DNA of 64,000 bases from a phage. Both the position numbers and the translations under genes were made by a program. Position 1 is the stretch's first letter; each line of letters starts with the position of its first letter. The DNA lies in the NCBI GenBank assembly GCA_016390365.1, contig GCA_016390365.1_3043.1. One strand, written 5' to 3'. Shown one piece after another: positions 3,248 to 59,264 of the stretch. The notes beneath the pieces were generated by a model. It saw nothing but the letters and a program-made list of their open reading frames with translations, ran no database searches and was not told the origin of the DNA.

Positions 3248-3610
3248 ATGAAAGCATATCAAATTCTTGAAGGCACACATAAAGGTACTATTTATTTTGA
3301 AGATGGTATTCAAGCACGAATTATTGTTTCTAAAACCTTTAAAGAGGACTCTTTTGTAGACCCAGAAATTTTCTACGGTTTGCATGCCCGTGAAATTGAA
3401 ATTGAGCCACAGCCTACAGTTAAAATTGAAGGTGGTCAACACCTGAACGTTAACGTTCTGCGTCGTGAAACTTTGGAAGATGCAGTTAAGCATCCGGAAA
3501 AATATCCGCAGCTGACCATCCGTGTATCAGGTTATGCAGTTCGTTTTAACTCTCTGACTCCGGAACAGCAGCGCGACGTTATCGCTCGTACCTTTACTGA
3601 GAGTCTGTAA
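3248..3610 (+). CDS. autonomous glycyl radical cofactor, GrcA/YfiD-like
   Basis: C-terminal [29 protein letters not shown] glycyl-radical motif; 3' half GC-rich with E. coli-like codons. Confidence 0.8.
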
Positions 3611-3831: not shown

Positions 3832-4090
3832 AGATATTAAAGGTTATAAGCCTCACACTGAAGAGAAAATCGATAAAGTGAATGCTATCAAAGACGCTGA
3901 AGTTCGTTTAGGACTTATCTTTGACGCTTTATATGATGAATTCTGGGAAGCACTAGATAATTGTGAAGACTACGAATTCGCAAAGAATTATGCTGAAAGC
4001 CTAGATCAGTTAACTATTGCTAAAACGAAACTCAAAGAAGCTAGTATGTGGGCTTGTCGTGCTGTGTTCCAACCAGAGGAAAAATATTAA
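3824..4090 (+). CDS. hypothetical small helical protein at the T4 vs.4 position (candidate Acb2-like)
   Basis: start ATG 3824 after SD gaggaag; syntenic position two ORFs upstream of regB; identity to Acb2 not verifiable from memory. Confidence 0.5.
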
Positions 4091-4368
4091 TGGCTCAATT
4101 AAGCGCAGGGTTTGGTTATGAGTATTATACTGCCCCTCGTCGTGTATCTATTGCTTCTAAGAAAATTCAAAGTCTTGATGATTTCCAGGAAGTAGTCCGT
4201 AAAGCTTTCCAGGACTATGCACGTTATCTTAAAGAAGATTCACAGGACTGTCTCGAAGAAGATGAAATTGCTTACTATGAGCAGCGTCTTGAACAGCTTA
4301 AAAACTTACATGAGGTTCGTGCAGAAGTTTCAAAGTCTATGAATAAATTGATTAGATTTAAAGAATAA
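4090..4368 (+). CDS. hypothetical protein (vs.3 position)
   Basis: 92-codon ORF starting [18 protein letters not shown] coupling. Confidence 0.5.
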
Positions 4369-55298: not shown

Positions 55299-55533
55299 AT
55301 TAAGTTGGTGTCAGTTTAAATCTCTTATGACAAATGTTAAAGCTGTCATTGAGAAAAATTCTGGTCCTGAAAATATTACTATTCGCGAAAAAGCTTTAAA
55401 GATAATATACAGTCTTGAAGAGATGCAAAAAGATATTGAATCTATGGCAAAATTTATTGATGAGCCCATTAATAAAGTTTATATCCAAGATTATACTGTA
55501 GGTCAAATTCGCGATTTAGCGAGGAAAGTTTAA
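55291..55533 (+). CDS. hypothetical protein, paralog of previous ORF
   Basis: motifs EMQKDIESMA and VYIQDYTVGQI. Confidence 0.45.
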   Translation: MIELSWCQFKSLMTNVKAVIEKNSGPENITIREKALKIIYSLEEMQKDIESMAKFIDEPINKVYIQDYTVGQIRDLARKV

Positions 55534-56216
55534 TGTTTGATTTTATTATAGATTTTGAAACGATGGGAAGCGGTGAAAAAGCAGCTGTTATTGATTTGGC
55601 TGTAATTGCTTTTGACCCTAACCCGGAAGTTGTTGAAACATTCGATGAACTAGTTTCACGTGGCATTAAAATCAAATTTGATTTAAAAAGCCAAAAAGGA
55701 CATCGTCTTTTTACTAAAAGCACTATCGAATGGTGGAAAAATCAGTCTCCTGAAGCTCGAAAAAATATTGCACCATCTGATGAAGATGTAAGCACTATCG
55801 ATGGTATTGCAAAATTTAATGATTACATCAATGCGCATAATATCGATCCTTGGAAATCTCAAGGCTGGTGCCGTGGAATGTCGTTTGATTTTCCAATTTT
55901 AGTCGATCTCATTCGTGATATTCAACGTCTTAATGGTGTTTCTGAGAATGAGCTTGACACATTTAAGTTAGAACCGTGTAAATTCTGGAATCAGCGTGAT
56001 ATTCGTACCAGAATTGAAGCACTTCTGCTTGTTCGTGATATGACCACATGTCCTCTTCCAAAGGGAACTTTAGATGGATTCGTTGCACATGATTCTATTC
56101 ATGACTGTGCAAAAGACATCCTGATGATGAAGTATGCTTTGCGCTATGCTATGGGTCTTGAAGACGCTCCATCAGAGGAAGAGTGCGATCCTCTATCTCT
56201 TCCAACAAAACGATAA
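55533..56216 (+). CDS. dexA: exonuclease A DexA (DnaQ-like 3'-5' exonuclease)
   Basis: 227 aa; DFET exo motif (MFDFIIDFETMG); matches recalled T4 DexA. Confidence 0.95.
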   Translation: MFDFIIDFETMGSGEKAAVIDLAVIAFDPNPEVVETFDELVSRGIKIKFDLKSQKGHRLFTKSTIEWWKNQSPEARKNIAPSDEDVSTIDGIAKFNDYINAHNIDPWKSQGWCRGMSFDFPILVDLIRDIQRLNGVSENELDTFKLEPCKFWNQRDIRTRIEALLLVRDMTTCPLPKGTLDGFVAHDSIHDCAKDILMMKYALRYAMGLEDAPSEEECDPLSLPTKR

Positions 56217-56218
56217 AA

Positions 56219-56254
56219 AGTTGTTTACTTCCTCGGTTAGTTGTGGTATTATAA
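56219..56254 (+). promoter_or_regulatory. early promoter
   Basis: gtttac 56223-56228, 17-bp spacer, tgtggtattat. Confidence 0.5.
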
Positions 56255-56279
56255 CACCATAGCTACTGAGGATAATAAA

Positions 56280-56633
56280 ATGAAAATTTATCGTGTTGAA
56301 TCATCGTTTAGCGCATTAAATGATGATAGTGGTATAATGAAAATTAGGAAAGAGTTATGCGTCCAATCGACTCCTTATCGTGGATTTGATTCTATGAAAA
56401 CTCGAACTTGGTTAAAATTTTGTGGTATTAATTCATCATCATTTCATCATCATAGCGATAATTATGAAAGTCATGAAAGTATTCCTATTCCACACGATGA
56501 TAAGTTATTAGTTGAAAATGCTAATGATGCTATTAAAACTAAATGGAATAAAGATTATTTACGAATTGAAAATTATATTCCATTGTGGTTTATTGCATTA
56601 TATCTTTTGCTTTCGCTACTGAATATGATATGA
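56280..56633 (+). CDS. hypothetical protein with C-terminal hydrophobic segment
   Basis: start ATG 56280; His-rich SSSFHHHSDNYESHES; C-terminal TM-like tail. Confidence 0.45.
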   Translation: MKIYRVESSFSALNDDSGIMKIRKELCVQSTPYRGFDSMKTRTWLKFCGINSSSFHHHSDNYESHESIPIPHDDKLLVENANDAIKTKWNKDYLRIENYIPLWFIALYLLLSLLNMI

Positions 56634-56791
56634 TGAGATGGTTCACCCGAGAAGAGCGTGAAGACTTAAAAGATCGTGGAATGTACACTGCGATTTATGA
56701 AGTGCCAGATGACCAAGTTATCATTGGTGGGCATCAAGTAATGTTCCGTAAATCCCATGCTGAACTTGTAGATTTTATTGAAATGAGATAA
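56630..56791 (+). CDS. hypothetical small protein
   Basis: start ATGATG 56630 overlapping upstream stop. Confidence 0.4.
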   Translation: MMRWFTREEREDLKDRGMYTAIYEVPDDQVIIGGHQVMFRKSHAELVDFIEMR

Positions 56792-56793
56792 TT

Positions 56794-57336
56794 ATGAAAT
56801 TTAATTATAATCCTGAATACACACCGAATCCTGTAGATAAACCGTTTGATATGGATATAGCAAGCATGTACGGCACTCTTGTTAAACCATTAGAAATTAA
56901 GGAAACATTTATGACTGCTCGGACCATCGAAACTGGCAAAACCTACAAACTGGTTGAAACTGAAATTAAAACTACTGAACTAGATTTGGGTTATAAAGCA
57001 TTGACTAGTGTTTTTGGTGAAGGCGAGTTTGTGGTTAAAAGTTTTTCAAAAAGTAATTGGCATGATAAGAATAAAGCTTATGTGATTCGAGCACATCGCT
57101 TAGATAATGATGAAGTAATTAAAACTATAGTCTTTGAAGCAGAGCTTATCCTCTTCCAAGAAGTTGATCCTACTGACCTTTTGACTCGTGCAGTTGCTAT
57201 CAAGACTCCATTCATTTGCGTCTGCGGTTGGGTAACAGACCAATGGATTGAAGATGGTGTTGAACTCCTGAACGTTGTTCATGCAGGTGATTTTAGCGTA
57301 GTACCTCGTAGTGCAGTGGTAGCTATTTTGAATTAA
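56794..57336 (+). CDS. MotB-like paralog
   Basis: C-terminal motif ICVCGWVTDQWIEDGVELLNVVHAGDFSVVPRS parallels MCAYITDQWVEDGVKLYNAVFLGTYKVIPES of motB. Confidence 0.5.
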   Translation: MKFNYNPEYTPNPVDKPFDMDIASMYGTLVKPLEIKETFMTARTIETGKTYKLVETEIKTTELDLGYKALTSVFGEGEFVVKSFSKSNWHDKNKAYVIRAHRLDNDEVIKTIVFEAELILFQEVDPTDLLTRAVAIKTPFICVCGWVTDQWIEDGVELLNVVHAGDFSVVPRSAVVAILN

Positions 57337-57374
57337 TAGTTTACAAACTCTTGGGACCAGAGTATAATGGTCCT
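57337..57374 (+). promoter_or_regulatory. early promoter with stem-loop around -10
   Basis: gtttac 57339-57344; inverted repeat ggacca/tggtcc flanks agtataat. Confidence 0.55.
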
Positions 57375-57412
57375 GTGGAGTATAAAATCTTTTTAACAAG
57401 TGAGAGATAATT

Positions 57413-57904
57413 ATGAATATTAATATCGGTGAAATTGCTCGTGTATCTGATAAATCCCGTTCTAAAGCAGCAGGAAAATTGGTCGAAGTTGTAAGCATTC
57501 AGCTTAAACACGGTGTTAAAGATGAAGATTCTGAAGTAAAAGTACGTATCATTGCTAAAGATGGAATGTCTAAGCCCCAGTTTGGTTATGTTCGATGGAA
57601 ATTTCTTGAGCCTGCGTTTTTGAAAGCTGTTCCTGCTAAAGGAATTGAAACGATTGATACTTCGCATGTAGGTGTAGACTTTAAGTGGAAACTTGGTCAA
57701 GCTATCAAGTTCATTGCTCCTTATGAGTTTGAATTTACCGAAGGTGGACAACCACTTCCTCGGCGTACTCGCGCTATGTGTGCATACATTACTGATCAAT
57801 GGGTAGAAGATGGCGTTAAGTTATACAACGCGGTATTTTTAGGAACATACAAAGTCATTCCTGAAAGTTGGATTAAACACTATAGCAAAGCTCGCTATGC
57901 ATAA
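57413..57904 (+). CDS. motB: MotB (modifier of transcription B)
   Basis: 163 aa; position dexA-x-x-motB-cef-goF as recalled; sequence consistent with recalled T4 MotB. Confidence 0.7.
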   Translation: MNINIGEIARVSDKSRSKAAGKLVEVVSIQLKHGVKDEDSEVKVRIIAKDGMSKPQFGYVRWKFLEPAFLKAVPAKGIETIDTSHVGVDFKWKLGQAIKFIAPYEFEFTEGGQPLPRRTRAMCAYITDQWVEDGVKLYNAVFLGTYKVIPESWIKHYSKARYA

Positions 57905-57934
57905 AGTTTAAAATTTTTTCATAAAACTATATAC

Positions 57935-58004
57935 ATCAGTAGTTGATTATGGTACTATATCAATATCAACTACTGATATAGAAAATAATTTGGAGAATAA
58001 AATG
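57935..58004 (+). repeat. PeSL-like cassette with 13-bp perfect inverted repeat and orphan start
   Basis: atcagtagttgat ... atcaactactgat flank tatggtactatat; leader TTTGGAGAATAAAATG followed by only an 11-codon ORF. Confidence 0.55.
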
Positions 58005-58076
58005 GAAAATTTGCCAAAGGTGCTGCTACTCTTCTGAAACGCATCGCTCCAATGTTCAATTAACGAGGAAATTGTA

Positions 58077-58292
58077 ATGAAACGTAAAATTGTTCAGAAC
58101 TGCACTAATGACGAATTTGAAGATGTGTTATTCGATCCAGATTTGGTAGTAGTTCAAAAGGAACACACTGCTAAGTTTACTCACTTGACTTCGGTTTATG
58201 TGTATGAAAAGGTTGGGGATAAACAACCAATTTACGGTGTATTTCGTGAAATCACTGAAGATGGTACAACTTACTGGAAGGAAATTTATTAA
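58077..58292 (+). CDS. hypothetical protein (cef position)
   Basis: 71 aa; synteny suggests cef, unverified. Confidence 0.45.
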
Positions 58293-58711
58293 TGGCTATT
58301 AAATTTGAAGTTAATAAATGGTATCAATTTAAAAATAAACAAGCTCAAGAAAATTTTATTAAAGACCATACTGATAACGGAATCTATGCGCGGCGTTTAG
58401 GTATGGAACCTTTTAAAGTTATAGATATTGACCATCTTGGTCGTCCTACTAAAATTGTGACATCTACTGGAAGATTGGCGTTATCCTCCGGTAAAGATAT
58501 TTTGGATGAAGATTTTATTTGGCTTTCAACGAGCGAAGCTGAGTTCTTTAATGAAGTGGAAAATCCATATCAGGCAGCTGAAGAACAAGAGCAGGAAGAG
58601 CAAGAACAAATAGAAGATTTCACAGAATTCCCGATCATGAAAGTTACTATTGAAAATAATGAACAAGCATGGTCCTTGTATCAGATGTTGAAAGCACACT
58701 TTAAGGAATAA
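58292..58711 (+). CDS. hypothetical acidic protein (goF position)
   Basis: 139 aa with [10 protein letters not shown] tract; synteny suggests goF, unverified. Confidence 0.45.
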
Positions 58712-58892: not shown

Positions 58893-59264
58893 ATGTTTAA
58901 AATCGGTAAGAAATATCGCATTCGTGAAGGTGAAGAACAGAAATATCTACTTTCTGCTAGTAATAGGAATAGTTCTATTAATGCTGTAATATTGACTAGT
59001 GAATTTATCGTTGAAGATATGAAAGGTCATAATGTTACAATGATTAGTACAGCATCTGGAAATGATGGAAAAATTCTTCATAGTTGTCAGAGTAATGTTC
59101 TAATTTATGATGAAGAATTTGACTTCTTCAAAGAAGTTTCCGAAGATTTTGATTTTGAATGTACTATTACTATGAAATCTGGTGACCCTCTTTCTTTTAC
59201 AGTTAAAGATGAAAGAAGTCGTTTGAGAGTTATTAGTCTCCTTCAAGCCATTAAATTTGAGTGA
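58893..59264 (+). CDS. hypothetical protein
   Basis: 123-codon ORF. Confidence 0.45.
   Translation: MFKIGKKYRIREGEEQKYLLSASNRNSSINAVILTSEFIVEDMKGHNVTMISTASGNDGKILHSCQSNVLIYDEEFDFFKEVSEDFDFECTITMKSGDPLSFTVKDERSRLRVISLLQAIKFE

What the first reader, a model, noticed from the sequence alone, without database searches (positions are those of the whole stretch)
56794..57904. MotB duplicated: a diverged paralog directly upstream of motB
ORF 56794..57336 shares a C-terminal block with motB (ICVCGWVTDQWIEDGVELLNVVHAGDFSVVPRS versus MCAYITDQWVEDGVKLYNAVFLGTYKVIPES) but has a different N-terminal region. This is a paralog pair separated by an early promoter.
Basis: seen in the sequence. Interest (0 to 1): 0.45.

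Follow-up and report, generated by a model that had tools for sequence, protein, structure and literature searches.

The report
MotB.1-type gene sharing MotB's C-terminal domain

Summary
ORF 56794-57336 (180 aa) and motB (57413-57904) share a C-terminal block of 16/32 identities (BLASTP E 5e-11). It is the only such pair in the six-frame translation of the window. Profile comparison extends the homology to the whole C-terminal domain: 50 columns, E 8.8e-17, with a 14-residue insertion in MotB. AlphaFold2 models give both proteins the same five-stranded SH3-like barrel there. The N-terminal parts are not detectably related. MotB has a KOW-type barrel. [quoted passage not shown]

The window is a Tequatrovirus (about 96% identical to T6, PST and AV122). 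The ORF is the MotB.1 positional homologue (RB32ORF010c type) and is 97% identical to PST YP_009153613.1. That protein is listed among the MotB/MotB.1 homologues of Patterson-West et al. 2021 (Viruses 13:84), which reported the shared C-terminal domain and proposed duplication. The T6 GenBank record carries the same remark.

The sharing is ancient and at domain level: third codon positions match 10/32, and the same domain is joined to several different N-terminal regions. It is not a simple whole-gene duplicate. Function remains unknown; the ORF is acidic (pI 4.9), unlike basic MotB (pI 9.4). Novelty: already known.

The parts
56224..56252 (+). Promoter-like site upstream of motB.2 (TTTACT-17-TATTAT, with TG before the -10). 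It is the probable early promoter for the motB.2 / ORF180 unit.
   Evidence: Consensus scan. The sequence is almost invariant in T4 and T6. Not tested experimentally.
56280..56791 (+). motB.2 (phrog_1106), the upstream neighbour. In this window a 1-nt deletion near 56606 splits it into 56280-56633 and 56585-56791.
   Evidence: Alignment with T4 and T6, ORF list and PHROG match of the intact T6 copy. None of 68 matching phage records shares the deletion.
56794..57336 (+). ORF180, a MotB.1-group protein of the RB32ORF010c type (Patterson-West 'Category 4', phrog_2333).
   Evidence: It is 97% identical to PST YP_009153613.1. Codon differences (synonymous:nonsynonymous) are 9:3 versus AV122 and 10:5 versus T6.
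56848..56904 (+). Conserved motif DMDIASMYGTLVKPLEIKE (residues 19-37) inside the predicted disordered N-terminal tail (residues 1-42).
   Evidence: pLDDT is below 50 for residues 1-42. D21, Y26, P32, L33, I35, K36 and E37 are invariant in alignment A4. Five KOW-type relatives (P0126, P0129, P0130, P0133, P0135) carry the same D-x-D-V-x-x-[MA]-Y motif in their linkers, and P0136 a weaker form.
56929..57165 (+). Central small beta-barrel (residues 46-124) of the fold class described as LSm-like for the GoF/Frd.2/MotB.1 N-terminal domains.
   Evidence: The AF2 model has strands 50-53, 78-86, 95-102, 108-114 and 121-124, with a helix at 61-74. Foldseek against BFVD hits T4 MotB.1 (P39415) at E 3.4e-6. 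Both N-terminal regions match phrog_2333. The match to RB32ORF005c is weak, E 3e-4 to 7e-4.
57166..57333 (+). C-terminal MotB-type five-stranded SH3-like barrel (residues 125-180).
57340..57368 (+). Sigma-70 / T4 early-type promoter for motB (TTTACA-17-TATAAT).
   Evidence: 11 of 12 consensus matches, identical in T4 and T6, and annotated as a promoter in wV7.
57347..57408 (+). Two predicted RNA hairpins in the intergenic region. The first (57347-57381) overlaps the -10 element. The second (57387-57408) pairs with the GAGAGAU Shine-Dalgarno region of motB.
   Evidence: RNA fold of -22.1 kcal/mol, z -3.2 against shuffles. Significance is unknown.
57413..57904 (+). motB. It has a KOW-type N-terminal barrel (residues 1-68), a disordered linker (about 69-89) and a C-terminal barrel (residues 90-163). 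The shared block is 57773-57868 (residues 121-152).

Best explanation
Shown: ORF 56794-57336 is the MotB.1-group early gene of a T6/PST/RB32-type Tequatrovirus. It sits in the conserved order dexA - motB.2 - motB.1 - (promoter) - motB - cef. [quoted passage not shown] The last part is homologous over its whole length to the C-terminal domain of MotB.

Inferred (evolution): the relation to motB is an ancient domain-level duplication or shuffling. One C-terminal module has been combined with different N-terminal modules. MotB's copy acquired a 14-residue extension of the first beta-hairpin, which carries three of MotB's basic residues, and a C-terminal tail.

Inferred (mechanism, about 30% confidence): the conserved acidic core (TDQW-x-EDG-x-x-L-x-N-x-V) is the fold or partner-binding core of the barrel rather than the DNA-binding surface. 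ORF180, which is uniformly acidic, probably does not coat DNA non-specifically as basic T4-type MotB does. Instead it would use the shared barrel, plus its LSm-like barrel and N-terminal motif, to engage a nucleic-acid or protein target during early host takeover. Like T4 motB.1, it is likely dispensable in laboratory conditions.
For: Identity and synteny: (97% identity to PST MotB.1).

N-terminal domains differ: nothing aligns outside the C-terminal domain. The ORF's N-terminal region groups with T4 MotB.1 and the GoF family.

Modular architectures.

Mosaic joint: DNA identity between the window and T4 is 12-46% in 50-column windows of the alignment (gaps counted) across most of the N-terminal region (56847-57196). 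It rises to 86-98% from 57244 through the promoter.

Ancient divergence: the block is 53% identical at nucleotide level, with third positions matching 10/32.

Purifying selection: and 232 homologue clusters.

Charge: ORF180 has pI 4.9 and its C-terminal domain 4.3. 118 ORF180-type proteins range from pI 4.65 to 5.5, against pI 9.4 for the window's MotB.

Literature: the shared C-terminal domain and the duplication proposal are in PMC7827196. T4 delta-motB.1 has wild-type burst size and latent period, and MotB.1 has an LSm-like N-terminal domain, in PMC12152347. MotB binds dsDNA non-specifically, is toxic to E. coli and copurifies with H-NS/StpA (PMC6070864).
Against: No experiment bears on ORF180 itself. 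The charge argument is weak at family level, because MotB-type proteins range from pI 4.7 to 9.5. The AF2 models are of moderate confidence (mean pLDDT 73.6 and 80.8), were built from shallow alignments, and could not be superposed directly. Sequence links between the ORF's N-terminal barrel and the GoF family are marginal: E 3e-4 to 7e-4, and GoF itself is not significant. Both proteins are tandem small barrels, so extreme divergence after a whole-gene duplication cannot be excluded by fold alone.
Confidence: 0.8

Rival explanations
1. Whole-gene tandem duplication of motB. The upstream copy kept the C-terminal core while its N-terminal barrel diverged beyond sequence recognition.
Against: No N-terminal similarity appears at profile level. 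The ORF's central barrel has its only detectable links to T4 MotB.1 and the GoF family. Relatives exist with a KOW-type N-terminus joined to a MotB.1-type C-terminal domain, and the same C-terminal domain follows one or two LSm-like barrels. There is a sharp DNA mosaic joint at the domain boundary.
Confidence: 0.15
2. ORF180 is a second non-specific DNA-binding protein that is functionally redundant with MotB, using the shared C-terminal barrel as the DNA-binding domain.
For: The C-terminal domain is homologous. PMC7827196 considers that this domain could account for MotB's DNA binding. Many database records name the ORF 'transcriptional regulator'.
Against: ORF180 has a net charge of -8, and its C-terminal domain is at pI 4.3. 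The shared 34-residue block is net negative in every group examined. The ORF lacks MotB's extended first hairpin (which holds three of MotB's basic residues) and its C-terminal tail. The database names are transferred annotation, not tests.
Confidence: 0.15
3. The shared block reflects a recent gene-conversion or recombination patch between neighbouring genes rather than old common ancestry.
For: T4-like genomes are highly recombinogenic, and the locus is mosaic.
Against: Nucleotide identity in the block is only 53%, third positions match 10 of 32, and only 8 of the 16 identical residues use the same codon.
Confidence: 0.02
4. The similarity is due to chance or composition.
For: The block is short (32 residues).
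Against: Pairwise E is 5e-11. The pair is a reciprocal unique hit in the window. The Pfam match is above the gathering score. The profile-profile E is 8.8e-17.
Confidence: 0.01

Closest known systems
MotB.1 of RB32/RB14/PST/T6 (RB32ORF010c; PST YP_009153613.1); the last group (green, 'Category 4') of MotB homologues in Patterson-West et al. 2021 (PMC7827196)
   Same: It has the same gene position, the same length (180 aa) and 97% identity to the PST protein. It is a full-length match to phrog_2333. The T6 record already notes 'C-terminus similar to RB69ORF012c, motB'.
   Different: Nothing substantive: there are five amino-acid differences from the PST protein.
T4 MotB.1 (NP_049627 / P39415; 143 aa in re-sequenced T4)
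   Same: It is the positional homologue, lying between motB.2 and motB. The C-terminal domains are nearly identical (DPTDLL...GWVTDQWIEDGVELLNVVHAG...VVPRSAVVAILN). Both belong to phrog_2333. Foldseek E is 3.4e-6.
   Different: The N-terminal barrel is strongly diverged: 22% identity in the hhalign of the N-terminal region alone, E 0.003, and 12-46% DNA identity (gaps counted). T4's protein lacks the roughly 45-residue N-terminal tail carrying the DMDIASMY motif.
T4 MotB (PF17613, phrog_1671), a non-specific dsDNA-binding early protein that alters H-NS repression
   Same: The C-terminal five-stranded barrel is homologous. Both are early-region genes in the same dispensable cluster.
   Different: MotB has a KOW-type N-terminal barrel, a 14-residue extension of the first hairpin of the C-terminal domain, a C-terminal tail, and pI 9.4. 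ORF180 has an LSm-like barrel, a short hairpin and pI 4.9.
GoF / Frd.2 / MotB.1 LSm-like fold family (Kim et al. 2025, PMC12152347)
   Same: The ORF's central domain is modelled as a five-stranded small barrel. It has weak profile links to RB32ORF005c, which belongs to the same PHROG as GoF, phrog_622.
   Different: GoF itself gives no significant alignment. ORF180 carries the MotB-type C-terminal domain, which GoF and Frd.2 lack.
SH3-like small beta-barrels (Tudor, KOW, BAH/PWWP, EF-P domain I)
   Different: Sequence identity is only 5-20%, there is no evidence of common descent, and no aromatic-cage or KOW signature was tested.

Membership tests
MotB.1 group (phrog_2333; Patterson-West 2021 Categories 2-4) | The gene lies immediately upstream of motB and downstream of motB.2, on the same strand. 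| tested here: met
   Gene order in the window and in T4, T6, PST, AV122 and wV7.
MotB.1 group (phrog_2333; Patterson-West 2021 Categories 2-4) | The C-terminal domain has the DPTDLL...GWVTDQWIEDGVELLNVVH core and is closer to MotB.1 than to MotB. | tested here: met
   hhalign against T4 MotB.1 gives probability 99.95%, with a near-identical core. Identity to MotB in the block is only 50%.
MotB.1 group (phrog_2333; Patterson-West 2021 Categories 2-4) | Full-length profile match. | tested here: met
   phrog_2333 at E 8.7e-76, residues 1-180 against profile positions 1-210. The PST orthologue is listed in Table S4 of PMC7827196.
MotB proper (Pfam PF17613 full length; phrog_1671) | N-terminal KOW-type barrel. 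| tested here: not met
   Pfam aligns only residues 142-175 to profile positions 120-153 of 162. hhalign aligns the C-terminal domain only.
MotB proper (Pfam PF17613 full length; phrog_1671) | C-terminal MotB core domain. | tested here: met
MotB proper (Pfam PF17613 full length; phrog_1671) | Basic protein with tight non-specific dsDNA binding, toxic to E. coli. | not testable with these tools
   Only charge could be computed: pI 4.9 against 9.4 for MotB. This argues against the feature but is not a test.
LSm-like fold family of Tevenvirinae (GoF/Frd.2/MotB.1 N-terminal domains) | Bent five-stranded antiparallel beta-sheet in the N-terminal half. | tested here: met
   AF2 model, residues 46-124, pLDDT about 77-87. 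Foldseek hit to T4 MotB.1 P39415, E 3.4e-6, TM 0.59 on the target.
LSm-like fold family of Tevenvirinae (GoF/Frd.2/MotB.1 N-terminal domains) | Detectable sequence relation to GoF/Frd.2. | tested here: inconclusive
   RB32ORF005c (same PHROG as GoF) gives E 3e-4 in hhalign at probability 39% and 7e-4 against phrog_2333. GoF gives E 0.19.
OB-fold / cold-shock domain (published prediction for the MotB C-terminal domain) | Five-stranded barrel with OB topology, and structural neighbours among OB folds. | tested here: inconclusive

The most novel reading that the evidence does not exclude
ORF180-type MotB.1 proteins are not DNA binders. They are acidic partners or antagonists that use the shared barrel, together with the conserved N-terminal motif (D-x-D-I-A-S-M-Y-G-T-L-V-K-P-L-E-I-K-E, predicted to be disordered), to dock onto the same target as MotB. 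That target could be MotB itself or H-NS/StpA-DNA complexes. If so, the motB.1/motB pair would be a functional two-component module rather than two independent paralogues.
Probability: 0.1. Interest if true: 0.45.

Novelty: already known. Interest (0 to 1): 0.12.

Why it matters
As posed, the finding matters little. The shared C-terminal domain of MotB and MotB.1-group proteins, their adjacency and the duplication hypothesis were published in 2021, and the GenBank record of T6 carries the same remark.

This re-analysis adds four things.
- The homology covers the whole C-terminal barrel, with a MotB-specific extension of the first hairpin.
- The sharing is old and modular.
- The fold looks SH3-like rather than OB.
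- This gene type is uniformly acidic, which argues against simply transferring MotB's 'DNA-binding transcriptional regulator' label to it.

The by-product with the most practical weight concerns T4 itself. The reference genome carries an extra G that truncates MotB.1 to 119 aa, and published synthetic motB.1 constructs were designed on that reference.

Tried and rejected
- **PDB sequence search with MotB:** no meaningful relative; best E 0.18, to an unrelated LPS-binding protein.
- **Further copies of the block or the DMDIASMY motif in the window:** none found in the six-frame translation.
- **GoF against the ORF180 family profile:** not significant, E 0.19.
- **Gene conversion between the two blocks:** rejected on codon evidence.
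- **Exhaustive HMMER search of 1.84 billion representative proteins:** only 18 clusters, with no relative of known function. Seventeen are MotB, MotB.1 or ORF180 relatives. The other, P0134, is a 408-aa four-repeat protein matching residues 32-109 at 28% identity (E 3.3e-6). I regard it as probably repeat-inflated and did not follow it.
- **Charge as a family-wide discriminator:** only half works. ORF180-type proteins are always acidic, but MotB-type proteins span pI 4.7-9.5.

Full report
**Observation.** The window carries an ATG-initiated ORF at 56794-57336 (180 aa), followed after 76 nt by a 163-aa ORF at 57413-57904. The second ORF is MotB (Pfam PF17613, E 5.8e-94, full length). BLASTP of the two proteins gives one significant segment, ORF residues 142-173 against MotB 121-152, with 16/32 identities and E 5e-11. 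Pfam's motB model matches ORF residues 142-175 at 34.1 bits, above the gathering score of 25. I translated the window in six frames (1668 segments of at least 20 aa) and searched with each protein and each C-terminal part. Each finds only the other (E about 3e-8 to 1e-9), and everything else has E above 1. The block is real, unique to this pair in the window, and not due to chance.

**What the locus is.** The region 55500-58100 is 96-97% identical to Escherichia phage AV122, Yersinia phage PST and phage T6, all in genus Tequatrovirus. Gene order is dda, dexA.2, dexA.1, dexA (55533-56216), motB.2, the ORF, motB, cef (58077-58292), goF (58292-58711).
- In T6 the orthologue is annotated 'C-terminus similar to RB69ORF012c, motB; RB32ORF010c'.
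- In RefSeq PST it is noted as 'MotB.1' (YP_009153613.1) and is 175/180 identical to the window protein.
- The family is common in T4-like phages: 232 clusters at 90% identity. It is also narrow: only 18 clusters at 50% identity among 1.84 billion representative proteins.
- Codon differences from AV122 and T6 are mostly synonymous, 9:3 and 10:5.

**Extent of the homology.** I built two alignments with the chimeric relatives left out: ORF180-type proteins only (A4) and MotB-type proteins only (A5). Their profile-profile comparison gives probability 98.8% and E 8.8e-17 over 50 columns. ORF residues 129-178 align with MotB 93-157, with a 14-residue insertion in MotB between the first two strands. 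PHROGs agrees: ORF residues 121-178 match the MotB family phrog_1671 at 1.4e-16, over profile positions 89-160 of 166. Nothing aligns in the N-terminal halves.

**Predicted structures.**
- AlphaFold2 on the ORF180 family alignment (mean pLDDT 73.6) gives a disordered tail (residues 1-42, pLDDT below 50) and a barrel at residues 46-124, with strands 50-53, 78-86, 95-102, 108-114 and 121-124 and a helix at 61-74. A second five-stranded barrel follows at 125-180, with strands 133-137, 142-153, 156-163, 166-171 and 175-179.
- MotB (mean pLDDT 80.8) has an N-terminal barrel (1-67), a disordered linker (70-86) and a C-terminal barrel with strands 97-108, 117-132, 135-142, 145-150 and 154-157. The strand order is the same as in the ORF, with a longer first hairpin that corresponds to the insertion seen by hhalign.
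- Both C-terminal barrels have a short helical turn before the last strand, which from my own knowledge is typical of SH3-like small barrels. The 2021 paper predicted an OB fold for the MotB C-terminal domain from HHpred hits to aIF5A. My models look SH3-like, but I could not inspect coordinates, so this stays inconclusive.

**The N-terminal regions.** MotB's is KOW-like according to PMC7827196. The ORF's central barrel is of the same kind as the N-terminal domain of T4 MotB.1.
- Foldseek against BFVD hits P39415 (T4 MotB.1) at E 3.4e-6, with TM 0.59 on the target.
- Both N-terminal regions match phrog_2333, at 1.4e-27 and 1.5e-40.
- A pairwise hhalign of the N-terminal regions alone is weak (E 0.003).
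- Kim et al. 2025 describe the T4 MotB.1 N-terminal domain as an LSm-like fold shared with GoF and Frd.2.
- In this window RB32ORF005c (58893-59264) belongs to the same PHROG as GoF. It gives marginal matches to the ORF's central barrel: hhalign E 3e-4 and phrog_2333 E 7e-4. GoF itself does not match.

**Evolution.** The same C-terminal module follows several N-terminal arrangements:
- motif plus one LSm-like barrel, as in this ORF;
- an extra N-terminal domain before that arrangement (P0121);
- two LSm-like barrels (P0122);
- the T4-type barrel (P0128), with the motif placed after it in P0125;
- a KOW-type barrel plus the same motif (P0126, P0129, P0130, P0133, P0135; P0136 has a weaker form of the motif).

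Between the window and T4, DNA identity is 12-46% in 50-column alignment windows (gaps counted) across most of the ORF's N-terminal region (56847-57196). It jumps to 86-98% from 57244 through the promoter, a mosaic joint at the domain boundary. Within the window the two blocks are only 53% identical at DNA level, with third codon positions matching 10/32. The sharing is therefore old, and recent gene conversion is excluded. I conclude domain-level paralogy through duplication and shuffling. A whole-gene duplication with extreme N-terminal divergence is not excluded by fold, since both proteins are tandem small barrels, but I consider it less likely (about 0.15).

**Promoter.** TTTACA-17-TATAAT at 57340-57368 (11 of 12 matches) is invariant in T4 and T6, and wV7 annotates a promoter there. 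A second promoter-like site, at 56224-56252, precedes motB.2. The intergenic RNA is predicted to form two hairpins (z -3.2), one over the -10 element and one over motB's Shine-Dalgarno region. Their meaning is unknown.

**Function.** T4 MotB binds dsDNA tightly and non-specifically, is toxic to E. coli, raises burst size two-fold, copurifies with H-NS/StpA and alters H-NS repression (PMC6070864, PMC7827196). T4 delta-motB.1 has wild-type burst size and latent period, the motB.1 amber mutant plates with similar efficiency on suppressing and non-suppressing hosts, and MotB.1 had no effect in an RNA-stability reporter (PMC12152347).
- ORF180 is acidic: pI 4.9 overall and 4.3 for the C-terminal domain. 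All 118 ORF180-type proteins lie between pI 4.65 and 5.5. The window's MotB has pI 9.4, with both barrels basic.
- The shared block is net negative in every group examined. Of the 14 residues that MotB has and ORF180 lacks in the first hairpin, three are basic, and MotB also has a C-terminal tail that extends past the end of ORF180.
- My inference, at about 30% confidence, is that the shared core is a structural or partner-binding core and that ORF180 does not coat DNA as MotB does. It would be an accessory early protein whose specificity comes from the LSm-like barrel and the conserved N-terminal motif.
- The caveat is that MotB-type proteins as a family span pI 4.7-9.5.

**Comparison with what is known, and verdict.** Patterson-West et al. 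2021 (section 3.2) describe exactly this. [quoted passage not shown] The PST and RB32 orthologues of the window ORF are in their Table S4. They sit in the last group, after RB69ORF012c, which by the stated list order is Category 4. The finding is therefore confirmed but already known, and I score its interest low.

**Side observations.**
1. The T4 reference sequence (AF158101.6 / NC_000866.4) has an extra G inside the conserved core of motB.1 (CAATGGATTGGAAGATGG). Five other T4-lineage records that I read directly lack it: KJ477684, MT984581, OZ209023, HM137666 (T4T) and RB55. So do T6, AV122, wV7 and the window. All 13 other near-identical records (99.6-99.8%) span 451 nt rather than 452.
2. 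Without that G, T4 MotB.1 is 143 aa with a complete MotB-type C-terminal domain. The 119-aa, 13.8-kDa form lacks most of the core. According to the Methods of PMC12152347, plasmids were made by gene synthesis; NC_000866.4 coordinates are given for the amber-mutant constructs, and MotB.1 is reported as 13.8 kDa. Neither paper mentions a frameshift.
3. The window's motB.2 is split by a 1-nt deletion near 56606 that no other phage record shares.

Noticed in passing
L003 (NC_000866.4, T4) around locus position 3300, minus strand; corresponds to window 57241-57258: The T4 reference genome has an extra G inside motB.1 (CAATGGATTGGAAGATGG). This truncates the annotated protein to 119 aa (ending ...GGWVTDQWIGRWR). 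Five other T4-lineage records that I read directly, plus T6, AV122, wV7 and the window, lack the extra G; in the T4-lineage records the gene then encodes 143 aa with a complete MotB-like C-terminal domain. Published work on MotB.1 reports the 13.8-kDa form, made its plasmids by gene synthesis and cites NC_000866.4 coordinates for its T4 constructs (PMC12152347, section 4.2), so it probably used a truncated protein.
   Followed up: yes
window 56280-56791 (deletion near 56606): motB.2 is frameshifted in this window by a 1-nt deletion (TATATC-TTTTGC against TATATCATTTTGC in T4 and T6). This splits it into ORFs 56241-56633 and 56585-56791. None of the 68 matching phage records shares the deletion, so it is either a private mutation or a sequencing error.
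   Followed up: yes
window 56848-56904 (ORF180 residues 19-37): A short, strongly conserved motif (D-x-D-[IV]-A-S-M-Y-G-T-L-[VI]-K-P-L-E-I-K-E) lies in a region that AlphaFold2 predicts to be disordered. The same D-x-D-V-x-x-[MA]-Y motif occurs in the linker between the KOW-type barrel and the C-terminal domain of five distant relatives (P0126, P0129, P0130, P0133, P0135; P0136 has a weaker form), and between the barrel and the C-terminal domain in P0125. It is a candidate docking motif with an unknown partner.
   Followed up: partly
P0132 (43 aa): This is a deletion derivative in which the first 14 residues of MotB.2 are fused to the last 29 residues of the MotB.1-type C-terminal domain. It resembles the 29-aa RB69ORF012c 'peptide' that forms Category 3 in PMC7827196. 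Such remnants suggest frequent deletion in this dispensable cluster.
   Followed up: no
window 57347-57408: The motB.1-motB intergenic RNA is predicted to form two hairpins (-22.1 kcal/mol, z -3.2). One overlaps the -10 element of the motB promoter. The other pairs with motB's Shine-Dalgarno region.
   Followed up: partly
window 58292-58711 (goF) and 58893-59264 (RB32ORF005c): These two nearby genes belong to the same PHROG (phrog_622) and so form another local paralogue pair, of the GoF LSm-like family. In T4 the second gene is not annotated at the corresponding place, between 39.2 and 39.1.
   Followed up: partly
L001 (AV122) 4003-4272 against window 57905-58076: AV122 carries an extra 89-aa ORF between motB and cef. 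It is absent from the window and from T6, where the spacer contains an inverted repeat (ATCAGTAGTTGAT...ATCAACTACTGAT, about 57935-57977).
   Followed up: no
P0134 (408 aa): A four-repeat protein of unknown origin matches ORF180 residues 32-109 at E 3.3e-6 and 28% identity. The score is probably inflated by the repeats, but it could mark a distant relative of the central barrel.
   Followed up: no
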